Source of the DNA: a virus
Taxonomy: Duplodnaviria; Heunggongvirae; Uroviricota; Caudoviricetes
Reading direction: 5' to 3' (one strand)
Length of the DNA stretch: 15,512 nt
IMG/VR virus record: IMGVR_UViG_2617270964_000015
Shown: positions 4,204 through 15,512 of the stretch, one piece after another
Layout: each line of letters starts with the position of its first letter
How positions within the stretch are numbered: position 1 is the first letter of the stretch
Notes under the pieces: generated by a model
What the model was told of the DNA's origin: nothing
Database searches by the model: none
Seen by the model: only the letters and a program-made list of their open reading frames with translations
Program-made: the position numbers and the translations under genes

Positions 4204-5256
4204 TTAGTACCCTCGAGCAGAGTAGACACGGGCCATTCCTGCCCAATGCGAAAACAGGATTTCATACTTGACTGGATTGTAATTAATGCTGCCATCCAGG
4301 GCGGCCGCATTCCATGCCCCGTCTGAAATAGTACGGTCGCTGGCTGTTTTCCCCCACTCGACAATGCTCCTCGCTATGCCCTGAACACATGCGCGATTTA
4401 ATGCCGTCTCACCAACATATGCCCCAGCGTCTGAACATGACTTCATACTCAGATCCAGGCTATTCCTGAAAAATTCCAGCCCGGCAATTGACATAAACCA
4501 GCGACCATTAGCGTATGCCACGCCATCGTTTCTTATTGTGAATTTAATAGTGTGCAGAGCATCAACAATCATCTGTTGCTCAGCTGTTGGATTCTGCCAT
4601 AACACGAGATCAATCGTTTTTTCAGAAGCCTTAGACTCTTCTTTCTCACGCTTGATGCGTTCGTCACGTTCAGCCCGGTATCGCTTTTGGTTTTCGTTAC
4701 GTAACTTCTGGTATTCAGAGGCGAGCTTATCCCGTTCCTGTGCAAAAGTAGCCAGACTCGTTTTAAAATCGCTTTCGTTGACTGTAACAAGCCCCATGCT
4801 CCAGCGATCATTTCCATAATCAGTATAGATAGCGTCAACTTTTGCCGGATTGCTCAATGCTATGGCTAGGTTAACCAGAATCTTCGAGGCTTCCTCACCA
4901 GTTTTGGAGCTATTGTCAAACCTGGATAGTTCCCCGACTCCATTGCCCCCATATTCATGGTAAGCAGCGTAAAACACAGGGATTGTCTGAGGTTTACTAT
5001 TAACCGCCTGGATAATACTTTTATCGTCGCACGTCAGCCCGTCCCACTTAAAGAGACTGCCACCACCGCTTTTGTATGCCTCACAATCATCGATACCCAG
5101 ACGAACCAACGCAGTCCAGCCGGGGCGCTTCTTATACTTGTCGCTTTTGGCGATATGCATTTGTGTTAACGCTTTTGCGGGATCGATCTTCCCCGCGGTG
5201 CAGCCTGTGAACATTAACGCCAAAGAGGTTAAAGCAATGCGATTGATTAAATTCAT
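4204..5256 (-). CDS. Putative lipoprotein with a central coiled-coil segment
   Basis: ORF 4204..5289; the internal ATG at 5256-5254 gives MNLINRIALTSLALMFTGCTAGK, an N-terminal signal with a lipobox-like cysteine. The middle is rich in charged residues (ERDKLASEYQKLRNENQKRYRAERDERIKREKEESKASEK), typical of coiled coil. Start at 5289 is also possible. Stop TAA at 4206-4204. Confidence 0.6.
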   Translation of the reverse strand: MNLINRIALTSLALMFTGCTAGKIDPAKALTQMHIAKSDKYKKRPGWTALVRLGIDDCEAYKSGGGSLFKWDGLTCDDKSIIQAVNSKPQTIPVFYAAYHEYGGNGVGELSRFDNSSKTGEEASKILVNLAIALSNPAKVDAIYTDYGNDRWSMGLVTVNESDFKTSLATFAQERDKLASEYQKLRNENQKRYRAERDERIKREKEESKASEKTIDLVLWQNPTAEQQMIVDALHTIKFTIRNDGVAYANGRWFMSIAGLEFFRNSLDLSMKSCSDAGAYVGETALNRACVQGIARSIVEWGKTASDRTISDGAWNAAALDGSINYNPVKYEILFSHWAGMARVYSARGY

Positions 5257-5335
5257 TATCCTTGTGTCCAGAGTTAGGTCGACCGGCATAGCTTACCCGT
5301 GGAGAAATGAATCGTCGAATGAGTTTGGTCGGGAG

Positions 5336-7123: not shown

Positions 7124-7147
7124 GGAAAAATCCCGGCCTCCGTCACT
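7124..7147 (-). terminator. Rho-independent terminator of the ProQ-like/PerC-like operon
   Basis: Minus-strand reading: stop TGA of the PerC-like gene, then gccggga-tttt-tcccggc (perfect 7-bp GC-rich stem, 4-nt loop; plus coordinates 7130-7147), then tttttt (plus-strand a-run 7124-7129). Confidence 0.65.
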
Positions 7148-7430
7148 GACTGCAATTTTTCGATCCAGGGTATTTCCTGAATGCCTTACCATTGGGCTGA
7201 TGTAATCCCATCCCGGCATGTGCCCGGCTGATGGTTTCGCGCATCTCCCCGAAATTATCCTGCCTTGCTGGTGGGCGTGCTGCCTTGTGGATACATTCCG
7301 CACGACGCTTTGCCGCCTGTTCCCGTGCCTTGTCATCATTCGCCAGCATGATGACCTCAGCCCACCGCGCCGCCGCTCTCCGGTACAGGCCACGCGCTTC
7401 CAGTGCTTCCGCTTTGCTGTCGTGAATCAT
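7143..7430 (-). CDS. PerC-family-like small transcriptional regulator (95 aa)
   Basis: N-terminus MIHDSKAEALEARGLYRRAAARWAEVIM matches my recollection of the PerC-family N-terminal signature (AE-LE--G-YRRAA-RW-EV). ATG at 7430-7428 overlaps the upstream stop (ATGA, 7427-7430). Confidence 0.5.
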   Translation of the reverse strand: MIHDSKAEALEARGLYRRAAARWAEVIMLANDDKAREQAAKRRAECIHKAARPPARQDNFGEMRETISRAHAGMGLHQPNGKAFRKYPGSKNCSQ

Positions 7431-7969
7431 GCGCCTGTTTTCTCCCTGGCTGCCCGGCGCTGGCGTTTGCGCTTCTCATTCAGCGCCACCAGCCGCGTTT
7501 CTGCCTCCTGCTGTTCCTGTGGTGTCACTTCCCCACATGGCTGGCCTTTCAGGTCGTAGCGTCCCCCACCAGCCATTAAGGCGCGGTAATAGCGCGGACA
7601 CTGCGCATAAGATGCCAGCGTCGCACGTAATGCCCCTGGCCCGAATGCCAGCCCCCTGACGGCGAGATCCTGCATCAGGTCGTCGAATATCCCCACCTTA
7701 AGCGGCTTCGGTGCTTCCCGGCTGAATAATTCAGGCCACAGTTCGATAAGGCGGTTAACGCGTCTGCGGTTTTTGCGCTGGCGTTTGGTCATATGCCGCC
7801 ACGGTGTCGCCCCTGTGGGCTTCTGCTGCGCTTTCTGGTTATCGGGCATCACTTTATGCGCCGATGTGGTTTTATCCTGCTCCTGTGCCGCCTGCGTCGT
7901 TTTCTGCGGCGTGCCGTAAATGCCTTTAGGTTTTCTGTTAATGGTCAGCTTTGTCATGCTTTGCCCCAT
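7427..7969 (-). CDS. ProQ/FinO-family RNA-binding protein
   Basis: PLKVGIFDDLMQDLAVRGL...YRALMAGGGRYDLKGQPCGEVTPQEQQEAETRL parallels the ProQ N-terminal FinO-like domain as I recall it (PLKIGIF-DL, RYL, R-DL-G-PCGE) and is followed by a basic tail. ATG at 7969 or at 7957-7955; the latter has GGGG 6 nt upstream. Confidence 0.7.
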   Translation of the reverse strand: MGQSMTKLTINRKPKGIYGTPQKTTQAAQEQDKTTSAHKVMPDNQKAQQKPTGATPWRHMTKRQRKNRRRVNRLIELWPELFSREAPKPLKVGIFDDLMQDLAVRGLAFGPGALRATLASYAQCPRYYRALMAGGGRYDLKGQPCGEVTPQEQQEAETRLVALNEKRKRQRRAAREKTGA

Positions 7970-7974
7970 CGTTA

Positions 7975-8312
7975 CAACTGTCTACCAACTGTCTACTGAT
8001 ATAATTTATTGATTTATTTCATATTATTCACACATGAATAAAAAACAACCTATCAACTATCTACCAACTGTCTACCGCATTAATGCATTGATAATTAATG
8101 ATTTTTACTAAATGGTAGACAGAGTAGACAGTTAAAAGAGAAATTTTAAAAATGAACCCTTAACTATCTGTTTTTATATACCCCCCGTGGTTTAGGAATA
8201 TAGAAACAACTGTCTACTCTCTACCACATTTAAAAATATCTATACAATTCAATGTATTAATTGGTAGATAGTTGGTAGAGGGTTAAGTATTACTGTCTAC
8301 CAACAGTCTACC
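7975..8312. repeat. Iteron array: about 12 copies of a 10-11 bp motif CAACTGTCTAC(C) in six tandem pairs, both orientations; putative replication origin
   Basis: Direct pairs at 7975-7996 (caactgtctac x2), 8054-8075 (caactatctac + caactgtctac), 8207-8226 and 8292-8312. Inverted pairs at 8114-8133 (ggtagacagagtagacagtt) and 8262-8280 (ttggtagatagttggtagag). AT-rich stretches lie between pairs at about 8000-8050 and 8135-8200. The array sits directly 3' of the primase gene. Confidence 0.6.
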
Positions 8313-8339
8313 TTTACGTTTCAGCTTATAAATTTCGTA

Positions 8340-10145
8340 TTATGTTCTGTCGTTAATCCCTGTTGCTGCTGGCAACCAGCCATCAGCATCATCATCTAAC
8401 AGAACATTTGTTATCACTCGCCCTTTATCCGGGCCTTTAGTGCATTTAGCCCGCTTATACTCCTTTCCGTATTCCGCCATAGCACCCGGCATATCAGTGC
8501 CAAAGCGTTTCAGTGATACTGGTTTTCCCAGACCATGCGCTGACATATAGGCTAAATAAGCATGATACAGATATCGCCTCGGGCTAAATGGCACTATTCC
8601 CGCATTACCCACCATCATTCCTTCACATTTAACCAACGACATCAGATATCCGCAAAAGTCCACCAGTGAATCACCCTCACGTTTTATCACCAGAGCCTCT
8701 TCTGATTTCTGCTGCTCATATAACAGACGTCTGGCTTCATCCTGGTCAGAAAAACGAGTAAGCAGGTGGCGAATCACTACCGCCAGTTCGCCTTCTATTT
8801 TTTCCACCAGCATGGGATCGCGTTCGTTCTCCGGTACGACCTCAGAGAAATTAAATATCACCCTACGACGCGAGATCCCCCCGCTTCGGTCACTGAATGA
8901 CATGGCGTTATTGTTTACTGCCAGCACTACCGCCGGAATACGAGTGGAGTATGGGGCTTTATGTTTCGGGTCGATCGCCACCTTGTCACCACCAGTAATT
9001 GCCTTAATTCCTGCACCATCACCAGCGTAGCGGGTCATATCCGGCATGATAATCAGCGAAAAGCCAACGACTAACGCGCGTTCCCTTGCGTCTTCCAGCG
9101 CCTTCATGCTTGCCGATACTGTATTGGCCTTACCCGCCAGCATGGTACAAATCTCCGCCATCACACTTTTACCGCTTCCGCCCGGCCCCGTTACCTCAAG
9201 GAATAACTGCCAGTCGTACCGGTTCGCCAGTACCATGAATAATGCCGCCAGTACGCGATCTGCTTTACGATCGTTATTTGCCACCGAACGACGCAGCCAC
9301 TTCCAGAAATTCGGCGCATGTGTTGCCAGTGTTTCCCCCTCTGCTGGTGGGCTGAACGGTAATTCACTGGCATTTAACAACCAGTCATTTTTGTTATGCT
9401 CCCGAAAATTTCCTGTCCGGGTATCAAATACCCCGTTACTGAATCCAATAAGATTCCTGTCTGCCCCGCCCATAACAGGCAGGCTCAATTTCATTGTGTC
9501 TACGGCAAATTTAATGGCGTTTTGCGAATAACTGATTCCAGCATCAATAAAAATCTTCGCCATAGACCGCTGGAGTTCCTTATCAGATACAGGCTCCCAG
9601 ACAATTCCGTTGTAATGGTGAACTACATCAGAATCGTCATTTATAGCCAGTGCCCTTCCATAATATTCAAGCAATACTTCCCCTCTCTGGCTGGCTCCCA
9701 TCTGATTTAGTGCTGGCCTGGGTAGGTCACTATTTTTTGTGACTAATTTCATCGCTGAAACTTCCCCGCGCTCTGCCTGTTCGCGGATCCGTTGCAGGTA
9801 ATCGCGCCAGTTCTCCGGCTCCCGGTCGGTGATGCCTTTGTATAATTTCGCCTCCTGTACGCCAGCCAGTGCCAGTTTTTCAGCGATAGCATTGATCTGG
9901 ATTGGTTCGATCTCCCCCGCGAGATAGACACGCGCAAAGCGGCGTTCATCGTCGACAATGCGGATATTCGCCAGGTCTGCCAGTTGCTTTGGCCCCAAGT
10001 AAACAGGTGGTACGTTATCGCCGTGCTTCCGTCCTTCGCTTTCAATCCAGTGTTGAGCATGGGAGTAAGCATCCGTCCCGGCAAAAATGATTACCTCAGT
10101 GAATTTATCCTTCGGCTGATATTTCAAATTCGGTGCGTTTTTCAC
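8340..10145 (-). CDS. P4-family phage/plasmid primase-like replication protein with P-loop NTPase module
   Basis: 601-aa ORF with Walker A GPGGSGKS. Overall resemblance to satellite/PICI primase-replication proteins is from memory only. Start is GTG at 10145-10143 with GGAGG just upstream, overlapping the upstream gene's stop (GTGA). Stop TAA at 8342-8340. Confidence 0.8.
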   Translation of the reverse strand: MKNAPNLKYQPKDKFTEVIIFAGTDAYSHAQHWIESEGRKHGDNVPPVYLGPKQLADLANIRIVDDERRFARVYLAGEIEPIQINAIAEKLALAGVQEAKLYKGITDREPENWRDYLQRIREQAERGEVSAMKLVTKNSDLPRPALNQMGASQRGEVLLEYYGRALAINDDSDVVHHYNGIVWEPVSDKELQRSMAKIFIDAGISYSQNAIKFAVDTMKLSLPVMGGADRNLIGFSNGVFDTRTGNFREHNKNDWLLNASELPFSPPAEGETLATHAPNFWKWLRRSVANNDRKADRVLAALFMVLANRYDWQLFLEVTGPGGSGKSVMAEICTMLAGKANTVSASMKALEDARERALVVGFSLIIMPDMTRYAGDGAGIKAITGGDKVAIDPKHKAPYSTRIPAVVLAVNNNAMSFSDRSGGISRRRVIFNFSEVVPENERDPMLVEKIEGELAVVIRHLLTRFSDQDEARRLLYEQQKSEEALVIKREGDSLVDFCGYLMSLVKCEGMMVGNAGIVPFSPRRYLYHAYLAYMSAHGLGKPVSLKRFGTDMPGAMAEYGKEYKRAKCTKGPDKGRVITNVLLDDDADGWLPAATGINDRT

Positions 10146-10638: not shown

Positions 10639-11000
10639 GATTCCCCCCCCCCCTGAATAACCTGATAACCGCAACTGGTCAGCAATTCGATAAATTCCGG
10701 CAATGTGCCGAAACAGCAATCATCACGCAGACGTTCGCGGGATACCTCAACGTCGTTTTCATAATGGCTCACCATGCGTCCGGTAAAATGCAAATCATCA
10801 TCGTGATGGCACGTTGACGGTTTAATCAGTCGCGCACGCTCTGCCAGTTCCAGCAATGCTTCAACACTTCCGGCAATTGCACCATCCGGCAGGTGGTAAT
10901 TACGCACTATGCGCCCGTTCTCCACATGGACCAGTAGCTGCCCGGTAAATTTCTCGTCAAACTGAATGCGGTTAAGGTCGGTAAGTGACAGGTTAATCAT
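10614..11000 (-). CDS. Hypothetical protein with two internal repeats (128 aa as read), ending just after a G11 tract
   Basis: ATG at 11000-10998 overlaps the upstream stop (ATGATTAA). Repeats DEKFTGQLLVHVENGRIV and DLHFTGRMVSHYENDVEV. C-terminus ...VIQGGGESWIISKQQ is encoded across the homopolymer. Confidence 0.5.
   Translation of the reverse strand: MINLSLTDLNRIQFDEKFTGQLLVHVENGRIVRNYHLPDGAIAGSVEALLELAERARLIKPSTCHHDDDLHFTGRMVSHYENDVEVSRERLRDDCCFGTLPEFIELLTSCGYQVIQGGGESWIISKQQ
10643..10653. repeat. Homopolymeric tract C11 (G11 on the coding minus strand) inside a coding region
   Basis: ttcccccccccccctg; eleven consecutive C at 10643-10653. Confidence 0.9.
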
Positions 11001-11358
11001 GGCGCACCTCCTGGCGAATACGGGCGGCGAATACCATCACGCAGCCATCAGGAGATTGCTGGCGTGCTTCCTGTTCGCTGGTGGCCTCGATGTGAATCAC
11101 GCGCGGTTGTGCCGTACTCAGGGCGATAAAACGCCAGATAGAATTGTTTTCGCATTTCTGAATAAACAGCGTGTTTTCTTCGCGCCCTTTCCATGTTGCC
11201 GAGATATAGCCCATGTCATTGAGCATCTCGCAGGCATCCACCAGCGTATCAGCGGCTACGTGTACAGTGTTTTTACCGTCAGCTATGCAATCACGGTGCA
11301 CCGCCAGGAAGGTGTATATAAATTTAGGGTGAGTTTGGGTATGCTGTGTTCCAGCCAT
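10993..11358 (-). CDS. Hypothetical protein (121 aa), first gene of the primase operon
   Basis: ATG at 11358-11356 with GAGG upstream on the coding strand. This is the 3' third of the 382-aa ORF-track entry 10993..12141, whose upstream part crosses the divergent regulatory region and a plus-strand gene. Stop overlaps the next start. Confidence 0.5.
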   Translation of the reverse strand: MAGTQHTQTHPKFIYTFLAVHRDCIADGKNTVHVAADTLVDACEMLNDMGYISATWKGREENTLFIQKCENNSIWRFIALSTAQPRVIHIEATSEQEARQQSPDGCVMVFAARIRQEVRHD

Positions 11359-11557
11359 AATCGTTACCTCGTTTAACGGTTTGGTTAGAAGCCCCGTTAC
11401 TGCTCCAACAGTGCGGGGCTTCGTTGTTTCAATTGCTGAATTGCATGTATCAGCCCTTGTGGTATTCAGATTACATTTTGGTGAATACCATTTCAAGTCT
11501 TTTTTGGTATTCACTTTTGTATTACACTGCATCCCGTTATTAATCGGAGGTGCAAAC
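11359..11557. promoter_or_regulatory. Divergent intergenic control region with hairpin and GGTATTCA operator-like repeats
   Basis: Stem-loop gaagccccg-(17 nt)-cggggcttc at about 11390-11425. Three copies of GGTATTCA / TGAATACC at about 11460-11516, one inverted. GGAGG at 11546-11550 precedes the ATG at 11558. Confidence 0.45.
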
Positions 11558-11863
11558 ATGTCCACGAGTTCTGTTAACAATAAGTCACAGCAACTGAATG
11601 CCAGATTTCCACATGAAGTAGTGAGTGGCATTGAGGCATCCCTACAGCCAGGGGAAACTAAAGCGAATTTTATAGTTACGGCTGTACGCGGTGAGATCGC
11701 CCGCCGCCAGGCAGAAGGAAGCGGAGAAAACCCCCTAGTTTCTTCGCTCGATGCGCTGGCGCAGGTGGAAAAAATCGGTGTCAAAGCTGCCGAGGAGATC
11801 GGGCAACTCGTCACCGTCGCGCGTGAAGAACTCCAGCGGCGCAAGGCCAAAGAACAGGAGTAG
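11558..11863 (+). CDS. Ribbon-helix-helix (Arc/MetJ-type) DNA-binding regulator, 101 aa
   Basis: ATG at 11558 seven nt after GGAGG; the ORF-track start at 11381 is unlikely because it crosses the control region. QQLNARFPHEVVSGIEA then ANFIVTAVRGEIARRQ fits the beta-strand-helix-helix pattern of Arc-like repressors. It is the only confident plus-strand gene inside the element. Confidence 0.55.
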   Translation: MSTSSVNNKSQQLNARFPHEVVSGIEASLQPGETKANFIVTAVRGEIARRQAEGSGENPLVSSLDALAQVEKIGVKAAEEIGQLVTVAREELQRRKAKEQE

Positions 11864-12087
11864 TTGATCAGCACCGGGCAACCAGAAAAAATCGTATCAG
11901 TTGCGCCACCAGCAAATTTTTTTGCTTTCCGGACGACGTTGCCAACGGCATTTTGCAGCAAAATATTCCGCATTTCTGGCGTACTGTAGTAACGGTGATC
12001 AGCGCCTTCACTCTGTGCGACCACAACGCTATAATCTGCCTCGTAGACAGTAAGCAATATAGCGCAGTAGAATATTCGTTCACAAAG

Positions 12088-12119
12088 GCGCTCCGGCAAC
12101 GGGGCGCTTTCTCTTTTTG
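12088..12119 (+). terminator. Intrinsic terminator-like hairpin, plus strand
   Basis: gcgctcc-ggcaac-ggggcgc (7-bp stem with one G-U pair, 12088-12107) followed by tttctctttttg (12108-12119). It lies about 225 nt past the stop of the plus-strand regulator gene and about 27 nt past the stop of the convergent minus-strand gene. Confidence 0.5.
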
Positions 12120-12133
12120 TAACGGTCAGAGCG

Positions 12134-12982
12134 TTACACATGGCTGTTTTCCTCCATGCGACGGGCTAACCAACGCTGCGAAAGACGAATTAATTCAGCT
12201 TTCCGCTGGTGGTAGTCCTGGCCTAACTCAATCAGCGTGATATTGCTCTGCTCAAGGTAAGAAAGGTGCTCAAGCTGCAACGTGCTCATGTGGTCGCGTG
12301 GTTCGCCTGTAATGCCGTTCGCCTGCGCCCACTGTTTTGCAGTCATGCCACCCAGCACGATACGCGCCAGCATATTGGCTTCCGTGGTGTAGTGGTGCTG
12401 GAGTGTGTTTTTACCCAGCTCAGCCCGGTATGCTTCCAGCGCGGCGCACATCGGCTTAAAGTAGCTGGCAACGGTGATACGGGCTTTCAGTTCCCGGCGT
12501 AACGCTGCGGAACGCACTGGCGCTACCTTGTGTAGCTCCTCCTCGCATTTGATGAAGTACTGACGAACGGCACGGCCCTGTTCGGTGCGTTCGACCATCG
12601 CCAGTTCTTTTGCCATGTTCGTGGAGATCAAATAGTCTTCACTGCGACGATCACCGCCGCGCTTTGTTGTCCAATCAGAATCAAACTGTTCAATATTTAC
12701 ACTTTGGTTCCCCCGTTTCGGGGAATCAAAGTACAAATTTTCTACAACTTTAAAATCCACGCCATTTTTAAATCCGTACTCATCAATACGTCCTTTAATC
12801 CAGGTAGTGAAATCACGGCCTCCCCCGAGCGCCTTATGCAACGCTCTGGCGCTAACAATATTGGTTTCACGCCCGCCAATAACGCCGGAAATAACCGGGA
12901 TAATTTCGCCGAAATTTTGCAGATTCTGGTTTTCAGGCCGAACTAAGCCCTGCCCCTGTACGGGCGTTTTTCGCTGTTTCAT
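12134..12982 (-). CDS. AntA/AntB-family phage antirepressor-like protein
   Basis: ATG at 12982-12980 with AGGAG 5 nt upstream. N-terminal region ARALHKALGGGRDFTTWIKGRIDEYGFKNGVDFKV ... MAKELAMVERTEQGRAVRQYFIKCEE matches the AntA-domain pattern I recall (DF-TWIK-RI--YGF, AKELAMVER--G---RQYFI-CE). Confidence 0.65.
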   Translation of the reverse strand: MKQRKTPVQGQGLVRPENQNLQNFGEIIPVISGVIGGRETNIVSARALHKALGGGRDFTTWIKGRIDEYGFKNGVDFKVVENLYFDSPKRGNQSVNIEQFDSDWTTKRGGDRRSEDYLISTNMAKELAMVERTEQGRAVRQYFIKCEEELHKVAPVRSAALRRELKARITVASYFKPMCAALEAYRAELGKNTLQHHYTTEANMLARIVLGGMTAKQWAQANGITGEPRDHMSTLQLEHLSYLEQSNITLIELGQDYHQRKAELIRLSQRWLARRMEENSHV

Positions 12983-13059: not shown

Positions 13060-13260
13060 TCAGGTAGCTGTTCCGCGTGATTCCGCAATACGCTGATTAA
13101 TCCACTCGTCAATTTCACTCTCAACGAAAGCAATAGCTCGCGAGCCAATTTTTACAGGTTTAGGAAAACTCCCTTGGGCAATGAGTTTATAGATCCATGC
13201 CCTTCCATAGCCTGTACGGCGCATGGTTTCTGACATACGAATTAAATTTTGCTTATCCAT
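13060..13260 (-). CDS. alpA: AlpA-family transcriptional regulator / excisionase-like HTH protein
   Basis: MDKQNLIRMSETMRRTGYGRAWIYKLIAQGSFPKPVKIGSRAIAFVESEIDEWINQR matches the AlpA family (small HTH protein ending -EIDEWI-QR). ATG at 13260-13258 has AGGAG 6 nt upstream; the ORF-track start at 13305 is less likely. It lies downstream of int on the same strand, as in P4-like and PICI elements. Confidence 0.75.
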   Translation of the reverse strand: MDKQNLIRMSETMRRTGYGRAWIYKLIAQGSFPKPVKIGSRAIAFVESEIDEWINQRIAESRGTAT

Positions 13261-13317
13261 ACACTTCTCCTGATGCATATAAAAGTCTGTTTCTGGAATA
13301 TACACAAGAGAAGGATG

Positions 13318-14297: not shown

Positions 14298-15512
14298 TCA
14301 ATCTAATTTTTCAGATTTTATGTAAACAACGTTTCCGCCATGCTCAAGCGAATCCATATAGTCGGCGTACCACTGGAGCATTTCCCGGCGACCATCCAGA
14401 TATTGCGCATGGTTGTATGTGCCACGAATTGAGTTTTTATCGGCGTGCGCAAGCTGTGTCTCTATCCACGCGGTGTTATAGCCCTGCTCATGCAAAATGG
14501 TGCTCATGGTGTGCCGGAATCCATGACCAGTAACGCGCCCGGCGTAGCCAATACGACGAATGAGCACATTCATTGCCATTTCACTCATTGGCTTACTGTG
14601 GTGAATACGACCGGGGAAAATAAACTGATACTGGCCTGTCATGTTTTTTAACTGCTCCAGTATTTTTATCGCCTGTTCTGGTAATGGCACACAATGCGGA
14701 CGGCGCATCTTCATTCGTTCTTTAGGCACTTCCCACAAACGATTATCAAAATCGATCTCCCGCCATTCTGCCTGCCGTAATTCCCCGGGTCTGACACCTG
14801 TCAGAATTAATAGCCGCATTGCCAGTTTGACGATCTGGCTTCCGGTGTACGTATTAAAAACGCGGAAAAATTCCGGCAGTTCGTCGGCCTTCAGATAGGC
14901 GTAATGCTCTTTTTTATGTGGAGCAAATGCGCTCACCAGGTCAGGGGCTGGATTATATTCGGCGCGTCCGGTGATGATTGCGTACCGGAACACCTCGCCA
15001 CATCGCTGGCGAACCTTACGCAATTTTTCAGTCGCACCACGGTCATTAAGACGGGAAAGAACCGCCAGCAATTCCATCGGCTTAATTTCTGCGATCGGCC
15101 TACCGCCAATGTACGGAAAAACATCTTTTTCAAACGTCTCGATCATTTCCTCGGCGTATGACGATGACCACCTGTCGATCCGCTTTTCGTACCATTCGCG
15201 AGCGATACCCTCAAAAGTATTGCCAAATTTGCTCGCCTGTTCTCGCTTTTGGGCTTTTCTGGCCTCACTTGGATTTATACCACCAGCAAGAAGCCTTTTA
15301 GCCTCATCCCTTGCCGCCCTGGCATCAGACAGAGACACATCAGGGTACACACCCAACGACAACATTTTGGGCTTTCCTGCAAACCTGTAGCGCAGTCGCC
15401 ACCCTTTCGAACCGTTCGGCTCAATGAGCAACGAAAGCCCGTTACCGTCATTGAGTGTATAAGCCTTTTCTTTCGGCTTCGCGCGCCTGATGGCAAGGTC
15501 TGAAAGCAGCAT
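14298..15512 (-). CDS. int: Tyrosine recombinase, P4-type phage integrase
   Basis: ATG occupies the last three bases of the window (15512-15510). N-terminus MLLSDLAIRRAKPKEKAYTLNDGNGLSLLIEPNGSKGWRLRYRF is the P4-integrase arm-binding signature. C-terminal catalytic region GHGFRHTMSTIL ... LAHADKNSIRGTYNHAQY carries the R/HxxR/Y residues. Upstream promoter and att site are outside the window. Confidence 0.85.
   Translation of the reverse strand: MLLSDLAIRRAKPKEKAYTLNDGNGLSLLIEPNGSKGWRLRYRFAGKPKMLSLGVYPDVSLSDARAARDEAKRLLAGGINPSEARKAQKREQASKFGNTFEGIAREWYEKRIDRWSSSYAEEMIETFEKDVFPYIGGRPIAEIKPMELLAVLSRLNDRGATEKLRKVRQRCGEVFRYAIITGRAEYNPAPDLVSAFAPHKKEHYAYLKADELPEFFRVFNTYTGSQIVKLAMRLLILTGVRPGELRQAEWREIDFDNRLWEVPKERMKMRRPHCVPLPEQAIKILEQLKNMTGQYQFIFPGRIHHSKPMSEMAMNVLIRRIGYAGRVTGHGFRHTMSTILHEQGYNTAWIETQLAHADKNSIRGTYNHAQYLDGRREMLQWYADYMDSLEHGGNVVYIKSEKLD

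What the first reader, a model, noticed from the sequence alone, without database searches (positions are those of the whole stretch)
11359..11863. Divergent RHH regulator with three GGTATTCA operator-like sites: candidate master repressor
The only confident plus-strand gene in the element encodes an Arc-type ribbon-helix-helix protein. Its upstream region, shared divergently with the primase operon, has three copies of GGTATTCA/TGAATACC (one inverted) and a 9-bp-stem hairpin. This layout fits an autoregulated repressor controlling the replication operon.
Basis: partly seen in the sequence, partly recalled or inferred. Interest (0 to 1): 0.45.

Follow-up and report, generated by a model that had tools for sequence, protein, structure and literature searches.

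The report
Satellite island repressor and its operators
A small DNA-binding protein gene in an E. coli phage-satellite island sits beside four copies of its probable binding site, placed over the promoter of the island's replication genes and over its own promoter, so it most likely keeps the island silent; related islands keep the same layout but use different site sequences.

Summary
GGTATTCA occurs at 11461, 11482 (inverted) and 11506, against 0.42 copies expected in the whole window. The 9-bp hairpin (11388-11422) and the 101-aa plus-strand gene (11558-11863) are also there.

- **Protein:** it belongs to the uncharacterised YlcI/YnfO family. Its N-terminal domain aligns in register with Arc/Mnt (profile-profile P=4e-5). 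A long C-terminal helix follows, as in Mnt.
- **Sites:** 28 related loci from nine genera keep four sites about 22 bp apart. These flank the -10 of a leftward promoter (Icd/Kil-like to primase operon) and of the gene's own promoter. The site word changes with the protein's beta-strand residues, but not with AlpA or the replicase. The true replication iterons lie elsewhere (7975-8330).
- **Best reading:** an autoregulated immunity repressor of the early/replication operon of a Gram-negative PICI.
the gene lies antisense inside a 382-codon minus-strand frame (10993-12141). That frame is stop-free in 22 of 28 loci and in frame with the Icd/Kil-like gene. This matches the nested kil/eta arrangement of phage P4, so an upstream promoter could bypass the repressor.

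Nothing has been tested experimentally. I rate it a new variant of a known kind, of moderate interest.

The parts
11558..11863 (+). Gene for a 101-aa YlcI/YnfO-family protein. It has an N-terminal Arc/Mnt-like ribbon-helix-helix domain (residues ~9-53) and a conserved C-terminal long helix (59-100).
   Evidence: NCBIfam NF041551 E=1.3e-16. phrog_6522 E=1e-46. hhalign against an Arc/Mnt profile P=4e-5. AF2 helices at 19-28, 35-53 and 59-100. Substitution rates at codon positions 1/2/3 are 0.255/0.202/0.559.
11546..11550 (+). Shine-Dalgarno GGAGG of the RHH gene.
   Evidence: Read from the sequence. GGAG/GAGG sits at the same distance in all relatives.
11460..11468 (.). Operator O1, TGGTATTCA. 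It overlaps the end of the leftward -10 and the predicted leftward transcription start.
11482..11490 (.). Operator O2, TGAATACCA (inverted). It lies in the spacer of the leftward promoter and abuts its -35.
11505..11513 (.). Operator O3, TGGTATTCA, upstream of the rightward -10.
11527..11536 (.). Degenerate operator O4, CTGCATCCCG, just after the rightward -10. Relatives carry a good fourth copy at this position.
   Evidence: Register alignment of 21 loci.
11468..11496 (-). Predicted leftward promoter of the Icd/Kil-like to primase operon: -35 TTGAAA (11496-11491), a 17-nt spacer, -10 TAATCT (11473-11468).
   Evidence: In the window it scores 8/12 and falls below the scan threshold. The same position scores 9-10/12 in L004, L002 and L013 (TTGACG/TTGACA, 17 nt, TAATAT/TAAAGT/TAACAT).
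11523..11528 (+). Candidate -10 (TACACT) of the RHH gene's own promoter. No good -35 was found.
   Evidence: It aligns with TATAAT/TATACT/TATATT in relatives. Inferred.
11388..11422 (-). Conserved GC-rich hairpin in the 5' leader of the Icd/Kil-like mRNA. On the plus strand it is followed by a T-rich run.
   Evidence: Compensatory changes occur in relatives: 6 of 11 consensus pairs show double changes.
11362..11378 (-). Small hairpin CGUUA/UAACG with the Icd/Kil-like Shine-Dalgarno (GAGG) in its loop.
10993..11358 (-). Icd-like / P4 Kil-like gene (121 aa), the first gene of the leftward operon.
   Evidence: NCBIfam NF033153, 78 bits against a cut-off of 25. phrog_6196/1743. Its N-terminus resembles the P4 Kil start, E=4e-5.
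10993..12141 (-). Eta-like stop-free frame of 382 codons, in frame with the Icd/Kil-like gene. It covers the operators, the whole RHH gene (antisense) and the 3' flank. Its ATG (12141-12139) lies 2 nt upstream of the antA stop codon (ATGTGTAA).
   Evidence: The P4 kil/eta parallel is taken from PMC10111431.
12085..12110 (+). Terminator-like hairpin with a T run on the plus strand, a candidate end of the RHH transcript.

Best explanation
The window is a Gram-negative phage-inducible chromosomal island (PICI). Its gene order is int, hypothetical, alpA, antA, then the plus-strand gene, then Icd/Kil-like, several small genes, DUF4222, primase, ori, ProQ, PerC and cargo.

The plus-strand gene encodes a ribbon-helix-helix repressor built like P22 Mnt: an N-terminal RHH DNA-reading domain and a C-terminal helix that probably joins dimers. 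I propose that dimers bind four ~10-bp sites of consensus (G/C)TGAAYNNCA, seen here as TGAATACCA, spaced 22-23 bp apart and so on one face of the DNA.

O1 and O2 bracket the -10 of the leftward promoter that drives the Icd/Kil-like gene and the primase operon, and so shut it off. O3 and O4 bracket the -10 of the repressor's own promoter, giving negative autoregulation. The RHH would then be the immunity repressor of the island's internal early promoter, the equivalent of PLE in phage P4. It occupies the slot where P4 and some PICIs carry the CI/C4 immunity RNA inside eta/ash.

The whole cassette lies antisense inside a stop-free Eta-like frame that starts at the end of antA. Transcripts from the upstream alpA/antA promoters, once the helper phage switches these on, could be translated through the cassette. 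That would let them escape Rho termination, reach the replication genes despite the repressor, and interfere with repressor expression by convergent transcription.

Shown by computation: the sequence layout, its conservation, and the class-specific words. Inferred: DNA binding, repression, autoregulation and the bypass route.
For: Family and fold:
- NF041551 match, 60.3 bits against a cut-off of 30.
- The profile of the N-terminal domain against an Arc/Mnt profile gives probability 70%, P=4e-5, over 35 columns covering strand, helix A, the GxS/T turn and helix B.
- In that alignment Q12, N14 and R16 fall where Arc has Q9, N11 and R13.
- 22 of 32 homologues give sub-threshold hits to the RHH antitoxin family PSK_trans_fac.
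- AF2 places helices at 19-28, 35-53 and 59-100.

Sites:
- Three exact 9-mers lie within 54 bp.
- In 28 loci from E. coli, Yersinia, Enterobacter, Klebsiella, Serratia, Erwinia, Raoultella, Photorhabdus and Xenorhabdus, four sites sit at about -98, -76, -53 and -30 from the ATG.
- 15 of 24 distinct upstream regions have at least 3 copies of a 7-mer, each with shuffle p<=0.01.
- The word differs by class: GTGAAY..CA, GTGTAAG, GTGTGTTTC, TGTGATTC, GTGTGTAT, and in L017 two different words, GTGAAAACA and TGTTGCACAC. It tracks residues 11-15 of the beta strand. R16 and the leading GTG stay constant in all but the second L017 word.
- Operator columns are 83% identical within a class and 48% between classes. 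Other columns are 76% and 58%.

Controls:
- L012 and L013 have 98%-identical AlpA but different words. L012 and L016 have the same word but unrelated excisionases.
- The same words occur with D5_N, DUF927, RepA-helicase and P4-family replicases.
- The window's real iterons are AACTGTCTACC at 7975-8330.

Promoter: an independent consensus scan finds the leftward promoter at the homologous position in L004, L002 and L013.

Eta-like frame:
- It averages 0.76, 0.05 and 0.90 stops in the upstream, gene and downstream segments. The two other minus frames average 4-7.
- It is fully open into gene 1 in 22 of 28 loci. In four more it ends 10-20 nt before gene 1's ATG.
- PGAP annotates part of it as an 'icd-like protein' fragment overlapping the RHH gene in Nissle 1917 and JB2.

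P4 precedent: Kil is the truncated end of Eta. Eta is translated only from the upstream late promoter, is coupled to the alpA homologue, and its translation prevents termination (PMC10111431, citing Forti et al. 1999).

Slot equivalence:
- EcCIMP1 and P4 carry a Phage_ASH gene there, and the window's frame has no Pfam hit.
- L008 has isrK and C4 RNAs downstream of the RHH-controlled promoter. The window has none.
Against: - There is no experimental evidence for binding or repression.
- The RHH fold is supported only at profile level. No Pfam RHH model passes its threshold. No PDB sequence hit to an RHH protein was found. The AF2 monomer models residues 4-16 as a low-confidence helix rather than a strand, and Foldseek finds nothing.
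- Word-protein covariation is confounded by physical linkage. The operators lie under 100 bp from the codons for the beta strand, and non-operator columns correlate with the beta strand almost as well (r=0.63 against 0.64).
- The window's own leftward promoter is weak by consensus (8/12) and was not called by the scan.
- The rightward promoter lacks a recognisable -35.
- O4 is degenerate in this element.
- The bypass and interference steps are pure inference by analogy with P4.
Confidence: 0.68

Rival explanations
1. The RHH is chiefly an antitoxin-like partner of the Icd/Kil-like cell-division inhibitor. The N-terminal RHH would repress the toxin promoter. The conserved C-terminal domain would bind and neutralise Kil, or sense it, as in RHH antitoxins with conditional cooperativity. 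On this view it is not a life-cycle repressor.
For: The weak Pfam hits are to an RHH antitoxin family, PSK_trans_fac/VapB-like, in 22 of 32 members. The first controlled gene is a predicted cell-division inhibitor. The C-terminal half is highly conserved across all operator classes, as expected for a protein-binding module.
Against: The arrangement is divergent, not the co-transcribed one usual for toxin-antitoxin pairs. The controlled operon runs on to the primase. Gene 1 varies from 62 to 140 aa while the RHH C-terminus stays constant. This rival is compatible with the best explanation rather than exclusive of it.
Confidence: 0.1
2. The repeats are bound by some other factor, such as AlpA, the replicase (as iterons), PerC or a host protein. 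On this view the RHH protein has an unrelated role.
For: The window's O2, GGTGAATACC, superficially resembles the P4 ori type-1 iterons GGTGAAYA/TGTTCACC. Word-protein covariation could be linkage alone.
Against: The words do not follow AlpA. They do not follow the replicase family either: the window (D5_N) and L001 (DUF927) share identical words, and class B words occur with three different replicases. The window's iteron array has a different word and lies next to the primase gene. A host factor would not need seven or more different words.
Confidence: 0.07
3. The RHH binds the sites but for a non-repressive purpose, for example as an activator or architectural factor, or as a packaging (cosB-like) or partition site adaptor.
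For: Short YlcI/YnfO homologues in K-12 cryptic prophages lie next to terminase small-subunit genes (from my own knowledge of the DLP12 and Qin maps, not tested here). Three sites with one inverted recall lambda cosB. The rightward promoter lacks a -35 and might need activation.
Against: The sites overlap the -10, the spacer and +1 of a consensus-grade leftward promoter at fixed register in all loci. That is a repressor geometry. Packaging sites would have to match the helper terminase and should not diversify into many classes.
Confidence: 0.08
4. The plus-strand ORF is not a real gene. The real product would be the long minus-strand protein, and the repeats would be incidental.
For: The minus frame is open over 382 codons and is conserved as open. 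Some pipelines call it as a gene.
Against: The plus frame has a curated family model, a conserved SD and ATG, and short stand-alone homologues of 50-65 aa elsewhere. Plus-frame codon position 2 is the most conserved, and amino-acid identity is higher in the plus frame (0.645) than in the minus frame (0.583). The minus-frame peptide across this stretch is Cys/Ser-rich, is not conserved between classes and has no Pfam hit.
Confidence: 0.03

Closest known systems
Phage P22 Mnt (and Arc) of the immI region
   Same: A small RHH repressor with an N-terminal strand-helix-helix domain followed by a C-terminal helical oligomerisation segment. It is transcribed divergently from the operon it represses, and its operator overlaps that promoter. 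The motif xNxRxPxEV and the GxS turn align with Arc/Mnt.
   Different: No Pfam Arc (PF03869) hit. There are four sites ~22 bp apart instead of one 17-21-bp operator. The controlled operon is Icd/Kil to primase, not ant. The C-terminal domain is unrelated in sequence. The host element is a satellite.
Phage P4 immunity region (PLE, CI RNA, nested kil/eta; Forti et al. 1999, as summarised in PMC10111431)
   Same: A Kil/Icd-like first gene is the in-frame end of a much longer ORF. That ORF starts upstream of an internal early promoter, next to the stop codon of the upstream co-directional gene. The primase operon lies downstream. Gene order is int, alpA/vis, bro/eta, kil, primase.
   Different: The window has no C4/CI or isrK/seqA RNA and no Ash domain. 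Instead, a protein repressor gene and its operators are embedded antisense in the long frame. One relative, L008, has both systems.
SaPI Stl / Gram-positive PICI Rpr master repressors
   Same: A functional analogue: a repressor gene lying between the integration and replication modules, divergent from the replication operon of a phage satellite (PMC6092414).
   Different: Stl and Rpr are larger HTH proteins transcribed with int. The protein here is a 101-aa RHH transcribed towards, and opposite to, int/alpA. Derepression by a helper protein is unknown here. For Gram-negative PICIs the literature names AlpA as activator and calls a global repressor 'unclear' (PMC6092414).
CopG of plasmid pMV158
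   Same: An RHH repressor of a replication-initiator operon that acts by occluding the promoter. It is sometimes paired with an antisense RNA (PMC2724298). Compare L008, which has the RHH plus a C4 RNA.
   Different: CopG is 45 aa, is co-transcribed with repB and binds one pseudo-symmetric element. There is no sequence-level match here.
E. coli K-12 YlcI / YnfO (DLP12 and Qin prophages)
   Same: The same NCBIfam N-terminal domain, NF041551. Short 50-65-aa homologues dominate the family.
   Different: The K-12 proteins lack the C-terminal helix domain and sit in a different gene context. No function has been reported for them; they are only listed in PMC13612085 and similar papers.

Membership tests
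YlcI/YnfO family (NCBIfam NF041551) | Score above the curated cut-off of the N-terminal domain model. | tested here: met
   60.3 bits against a cut-off of 30, E=1.3e-16, residues 9-50. PGAP names the 99%-identical protein in this way.
Ribbon-helix-helix (MetJ/Arc) superfamily | Sequence or profile similarity to established RHH families across strand, helix A, the GxS/T/N turn and helix B. | tested here: inconclusive
   hhalign of profile A4 against Arc/Mnt profile A5 gives probability 69.7%, P=4.2e-5, in register. No Pfam RHH model reaches its gathering score: PSK_trans_fac best E=0.0015, and Arc gives no hit. No PDB RHH hit by sequence.
Ribbon-helix-helix (MetJ/Arc) superfamily | An intertwined dimer in which the paired N-terminal strands form the DNA-reading sheet. 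| not testable with these tools
   Only a monomer could be modelled. AF2 gives helices 19-28 and 35-53 in the right places, but residues 4-16 come out as a low-confidence helix (pLDDT 54-57). Foldseek gives no match.
Autoregulated repressor-operator (immunity) module | Repeated binding sites that overlap the core elements of the target promoter and of the regulator's own promoter. | tested here: met
   O1 and O2 bracket the leftward -10, and O3 and O4 bracket the rightward -10, at fixed register in 28 loci. The leftward promoter is called independently in three relatives.
Autoregulated repressor-operator (immunity) module | The protein binds the sites and lowers transcription. | not testable with these tools
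   This needs EMSA or footprinting and reporter assays.
Autoregulated repressor-operator (immunity) module | Specificity co-variation between the DNA-reading residues and the site sequence. | tested here: inconclusive
   There are seven or more word classes with no mismatched combination in 28 loci. The Mantel correlation is r=0.64, exceeded by 0 of 5000 permutations. However, linked non-operator columns give r=0.63.
P4-type nested kil/eta organisation | The first gene of the early operon is Kil/Icd-like. | tested here: met
   NF033153, 78.1 bits against a cut-off of 25. The N-terminus resembles the P4 Kil start, E=4e-5. phrog_6196/1743, E about 1e-27 to 1e-29.
P4-type nested kil/eta organisation | A longer in-frame ORF that begins upstream of the internal promoter and next to the upstream gene's stop codon. 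| tested here: met
   The 382-codon frame runs 10993-12141, and its ATG lies 2 nt upstream of the antA stop. The frame is open in 22 of 28 loci, against 4-7 stops in the other frames. Start-stop overlaps or near-abutments occur in L014, L017, L018 and L010.
P4-type nested kil/eta organisation | CI/C4 immunity RNA with a seqA/isrK target inside eta, and an Ash domain. | tested here: not met
   Rfam finds no C4 or isrK in the window at the gathering threshold, or at E<=5. Both are found in P4 and in L008. Phage_ASH is found in P4 and EcCIMP1 but not in the window's frame.
Gram-negative PICI (Fillol-Salom et al. 2018; zones of PMC10111431) | The order int, alpA, Bro-network gene, primase with adjacent iteron ori, no structural or lysis genes, size about 10-20 kb. 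| tested here: met
   Pfam finds integrase, Phage_AlpA, AntA and D5_N/DUF5906/Pox_D5. ProQ and PerC are present. Iterons lie at 7975-8330. The att sites and helper dependence were not tested.

The most novel reading that the evidence does not exclude
The RHH gene and its operators form a protein-based immunity cassette that can replace the CI-RNA/Ash cassette of P4-type satellites. It comes in at least seven specificity classes, which would act as 'immunity types' of Gram-negative PICIs. The cassette is housed antisense inside a frame whose openness, not its amino-acid sequence, is under selection. Helper-induced, AlpA-driven transcripts would then be translated straight through the repressor gene. 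This would both bypass repression, by preventing Rho termination, and silence the repressor by convergent transcription, giving a built-in toggle switch.
Probability: 0.3. Interest if true: 0.75.

Novelty: new variant of a known kind. Interest (0 to 1): 0.55.

Why it matters
For Gram-negative PICIs the only established regulator is the activator AlpA. [quoted passage not shown] This RHH-operator module recurs in at least 490 of 5,426 complete E. coli genomes, including the probiotic strain Nissle 1917, and in eight other genera. It therefore offers a concrete, testable candidate for how a large subset of these islands keep their replication operon and a cell-division inhibitor silent.

The class-specific operator words would also predict which islands are mutually immune. 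In addition they offer a natural set of orthogonal small repressor/operator pairs.

The stop-free antisense frame extends the P4 kil/eta logic, in which translation acts as an anti-termination device, to a case where a whole gene lies on the other strand. That is unusual and easy to test.

Tried and rejected
- **Rfam on the whole window, then the region at E<=5.** No family was found. The only hits were chance-level matches of the hairpin to RsaJ and to the P22 sar terminator (E=0.049 and 2.7, far below gathering). I reject these as generic GC hairpin resemblance.
- **PDB by sequence and by profile.** No RHH hit. There was a weak helix-hairpin-helix-like match of residues 45-86 to Hef (E=0.007) and to Pol beta. 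The invariant G74 is suggestive, but AF2 models one continuous helix, so this stays open.
- **AF2 monomer with Foldseek against the PDB.** Uninformative for a fold that exists only as a dimer.
- **Exhaustive profile search of 1.84 billion representatives.** The family is small (78 hits) and does not bridge to named RHH families.
- **Iteron hypothesis.** Rejected. The replicase families do not track the words, and the true iterons are at 7975-8330.
- **AlpA-site hypothesis.** Rejected.
- **Minus-strand ORF as the only real gene.** Rejected on the codon-position pattern and the family evidence.
- **A plus-strand antisense sRNA ending at the hairpin (FinP-like, given the island's ProQ/FinO gene).** I found no convincing plus-strand promoter by eye or by the scan. 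It is left as an idea.
- **Mantel test.** It could not separate function from linkage.
- **Literature.** No paper in the searchable library assigns a function to YlcI/YnfO or describes an RHH repressor in PICIs. Forti et al. 1999 (PMC94026) was not held, so its content is cited through PMC10111431.
Full report
**1. The observation**

GGTATTCA occurs at 11461 (+), 11482 (-) and 11506 (+), with one more copy at 4710. The whole 15.5-kb window is expected to hold 0.42 copies, and none of 200 shuffles reached four.

The copies extend to the 9-10-mers TGGTATTCA, TGAATACCA and TGGTATTCA(C). These form two overlapping inverted repeats with 13- and 14-nt spacers. The hairpin has 9-bp arms at 11388-11396 and 11414-11422.

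The plus-strand gene starts at ATG 11558, preceded by GGAGG at 11546-11550, and stops at 11861-11863, giving 101 aa.

**2. Context**

Every other recognisable gene is on the minus strand:
- integrase, 14298-15512
- a 302-aa hypothetical protein
- AlpA, 13060-13305
- an AntA/AntB protein, 12134-12982
- then, beyond the plus-strand gene, an Icd-like gene (10993-11358), a 128-aa protein, DUF4222 and a D5/P4-type primase (8340-10145)
- a ProQ/FinO protein, PerC and cargo

An array of at least 12 copies of AACTGTCTACC at 7975-8330, next to the primase gene, is the probable origin. This is the organisation of a Gram-negative PICI as laid out in PMC6092414 and PMC10111431.

Some part of 10900-12300 matches 1,399 of 5,426 complete E. 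coli genomes. The RHH gene itself matches 490 of them, and 57 carry this particular N-terminus and operator class. In a 95%-identical island PGAP annotates the gene as 'YlcI/YnfO family protein', and it is the only plus-strand gene there.

**3. The protein**

It passes the NCBIfam YlcI/YnfO N-terminal model (60.3 bits against a cut-off of 30) and phrog_6522. It has no Pfam hit above threshold.

An exhaustive profile search found only 78 representative relatives. Most are 50-65-aa proteins consisting of the N-terminal domain alone.

A profile of this domain aligns with an Arc/Mnt profile over 35 columns, in register from the beta strand through helix A and the GxS/T turn into helix B (probability 70%, P=4e-5). 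Single-sequence comparisons gave P=6e-4 to 9e-3. In that alignment Q12, N14 and R16 fall where Arc has Q9, N11 and R13. From my own knowledge, those three are Arc's base-contacting residues.

Twenty-two of 32 homologues give sub-threshold hits to an RHH antitoxin family. AF2 places helices at 19-28 and 35-53 and a confident long helix at 59-100. This matches the domain plan of P22 Mnt. The monomer model cannot show the dimeric ribbon, and Foldseek found nothing.

I therefore treat the RHH fold as well supported but not proven.

**4. Comparative test of the repeats**

I collected 27 further loci from E. coli, Yersinia, Enterobacter, Klebsiella, Serratia, Erwinia, Raoultella, Photorhabdus and Xenorhabdus. 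An almost ungapped register alignment of the 112 bp upstream of the ATG shows one architecture in all of them. Reading towards the ATG:
- a site at about -98
- a site at about -76
- a conserved GTCAAG/GTCAAT/GTCAAC
- a T tract
- a site at about -53
- a T tract
- GTGTATAMTG
- a site at about -30
- the Shine-Dalgarno

The word at the four sites differs between groups of loci and goes with residues 11-15 of the protein:

| Beta-strand residues | Site word |
|---|---|
| QQ(L/I)(N/G)A | GTGAAYNNCA |
| QSLTA | GTGTAAG |
| QLTTV | GTGTGTTTC |
| KQISI | TGTGATTC |
| Q(M/V/L/I)KN(I/V) | GTGTGTAT |
| QALAA | two different words |

The leading GTG of nearly all the words, and R16, are constant. Fifteen of 24 distinct upstream regions carry at least 3 exact copies of a 7-mer (p<=0.01 each). 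The rest carry pairs of longer inverted repeats.

The Yersinia locus has the same beta strand as the window. It uses GTGAATCGCA at O1/O2 and GAATACCAC at O3/O4, which defines the common core. Under that core the window has a fourth, weaker site, CTGCATCCCG, at 11527-11536.

Operator columns are 83% identical within classes and 48% between classes. Other columns are 76% and 58%.

The correlation with the beta strand is strong (Mantel r=0.64, 0 of 5000 permutations). But linked non-operator columns give r=0.63, so covariation alone cannot exclude simple linkage.

What linkage does not explain is a class-specific word repeated three or four times at fixed positions.

**5. Controls for other binders**

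- L012 and L013 have 98%-identical AlpA but different words.
- L012 and L016 share words but have unrelated excisionases.
- The window and L001 share identical words but have D5_N and DUF927 replicases respectively.
- Class B words occur with a P4-family primase, a RepA helicase and another primase family.
- The window's iterons are a different word elsewhere.
- The resemblance of GGTGAATACC to the P4 type-1 iterons is therefore judged coincidental.

**6. Promoters**

The conserved GTCAAG is the reverse complement of a -35. In the window the minus strand reads TTGAAA (11496-11491), then 17 nt, then TAATCT (11473-11468).

This scores 8/12 and was not called by the scan. The homologous position is called independently in L004 (TTGACG-17-TAATAT), L002 (TTGACA-17-TAAAGT) and L013 (TTGACG-17-TAACAT).

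O2 fills the spacer next to the -35, and O1 covers the end of the -10 and the start site. On the plus strand a -10 lies between O3 and O4. It is TATAAT, TATACT or TATATT in relatives and TACACT (11523-11528) in the window. No good -35 is visible.

Both promoters are therefore bracketed by site pairs. This is the geometry of repression and autorepression.

**7. The leader**

The 103-nt leader of the Icd/Kil-like mRNA folds into the GC hairpin plus a small hairpin. The small hairpin carries the Shine-Dalgarno in its loop (z=-3.83).

Both hairpins recur in relatives. Six of 11 consensus pairs show compensatory changes. Their role is unknown.

On the plus strand the big hairpin is followed by a T-rich run and is scored terminator-like.

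**8.

The ORF listing shows a 382-aa minus-strand ORF at 10993-12141. It contains the Icd-like gene in frame and runs antisense through the leader, the operators, the entire RHH gene and the 270-bp 3' flank. Its ATG lies 2 nt upstream of the antA stop codon (ATGTGTAA).

In the first 21 loci this frame averages 0.76, 0.05 and 0.90 stops in the upstream, gene and downstream segments. The two other minus frames average 4-7. All seven additional E. coli loci also have it open over 264-530 codons.

Overall:
- it is open into gene 1 in 22 of 28 loci
- it ends 10-20 nt before gene 1's ATG in four
- it is lost in two

The encoded peptide is Cys/Ser-rich. It differs between classes, even in a replaced patch between the window and L001, and it has no Pfam hit. 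Openness rather than sequence seems to be what is kept.

The plus frame is still the constrained protein. Substitution rates at codon positions 1/2/3 are 0.255/0.202/0.559. Amino-acid identity is 0.645 in the plus frame and 0.583 in the minus frame.

**9. The P4 parallel**

PMC10111431 summarises Forti et al. 1999 as follows:
- Kil is a truncated form of Eta.
- Full-length Eta is translated only from an upstream late promoter.
- Its translation prevents termination.

The window's Icd-like protein resembles the P4 Kil N-terminus (E=4e-5). It also hits the phrogs that include the old P4 'cI' ORF.

P4 and the characterised PICI EcCIMP1 have a Phage_ASH gene in this slot and no YlcI/YnfO gene. P4 carries C4 and isrK RNAs there. 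The window has neither RNA. One relative, L008, has the RHH cassette followed by isrK and C4.

The RHH-operator cassette thus occupies the immunity slot of a P4-type early operon.

**10. Mechanism proposed**

RHH dimers, probably joined by the C-terminal helix, occupy O1-O4. This would silence the internal early promoter (Icd/Kil-like to primase) and limit their own synthesis.

When the helper phage turns on alpA (PMC6092414, PMC11773190), transcripts from upstream could be translated through the Eta-like frame. They would then avoid Rho, reach the replication genes and collide with RHH transcription. The conserved C-terminal domain could alternatively receive a helper or island anti-repressor.

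Only the layout and its conservation are shown. Binding, repression and bypass are inferred.

**11. Novelty and score**

RHH repressors with promoter-overlapping operators are a known kind. The family here is named but uncharacterised. I found no paper giving it a function or describing an RHH repressor in PICIs. The founding paper calls a global repressor in Gram-negative PICIs 'unclear'.

Three things make this a new variant of a known kind:
- a protein immunity cassette in place of the P4 RNA cassette
- at least seven specificity classes
- a nested antisense position inside a frame kept open

Interest: 0.55.

Noticed in passing
window 7975-8330: At least 12 copies of the 11-bp iteron AACTGTCTACC / GGTAGACAGTT, in both orientations, surround an AT-rich core just downstream of the primase gene. 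This is the probable replication origin of the island.
   Followed up: partly
window 10993-12141 (minus strand): A 382-codon stop-free frame is in frame with the Icd-like gene and runs antisense across the whole RHH gene and both flanks. It is kept open in 22 of 28 related loci, while the two other frames carry 4-7 stops per segment. PGAP annotates a fragment of it as an 'icd-like protein' pseudogene overlapping the YlcI/YnfO gene in Nissle 1917 and JB2.
   Followed up: yes
L008 1518-2184 (E. coli GCA_002797055.1): A relative with an RHH cassette also carries an isrK-like element and two C4/CI-type RNAs between the operator region and a second Kil-like start. Protein and RNA immunity systems therefore sit in series.
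   Followed up: partly
window 11558-11863, compared with P0013 and others: The protein is modular. The C-terminal half (residues ~52-101) is nearly identical across classes. The N-terminal DNA-reading half is only about 50% identical. Operator similarity correlates with residues 8-20 (r=0.64) but hardly with residues 56-95 (r=0.19). This suggests recombination between the two halves.
   Followed up: partly
window 11690-11815 (protein residues 45-86): The conserved segment LDALAQVEKIGVKAAEEIGQLV, with invariant G74, gives a weak helix-hairpin-helix-like match to the Hef (HhH)2 domain (profile E=0.007) and to DNA polymerase beta. AF2 models it as one continuous helix.
   Followed up: no
window 7143-7969: The island encodes a ProQ/FinO-family RNA chaperone and a PerC-family regulator downstream of the origin. 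The Icd/Kil leader has two conserved stem-loops, and its large hairpin is followed by a T run on the opposite strand. A FinP-like antisense RNA is therefore conceivable, but no plus-strand promoter was found.
   Followed up: partly
window 4709-4717; 11594-11603 and 11626-11635: A fourth exact TGAATACCA lies alone inside cargo ORF 4204-5289. A one-mismatch copy (CTGAATGCCA) and an imperfect inverted partner lie inside the RHH coding region, over the codons for the beta strand itself. One-mismatch copies are expected by chance (3.9 per window).
   Followed up: no
window 11916-12085: The AT-rich 3' flank of the RHH gene holds five promoter-like matches on both strands against 1.1 expected, and a 14-nt direct repeat (11955 and 12064). 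Part of this stretch is replaced by unrelated sequence in the 95%-identical relative L001, yet the minus frame stays open there.
   Followed up: no
L001 17213-25293 (E. coli ZF8-1): In this relative the island lies directly beside a P22-like prophage (tailspike, Arc-family protein, ejection proteins). The characterised relative EcCIMP1 is mobilised by the P22-like phage Kapi1 (PMC11773190). This hints at the helper type.
   Followed up: no
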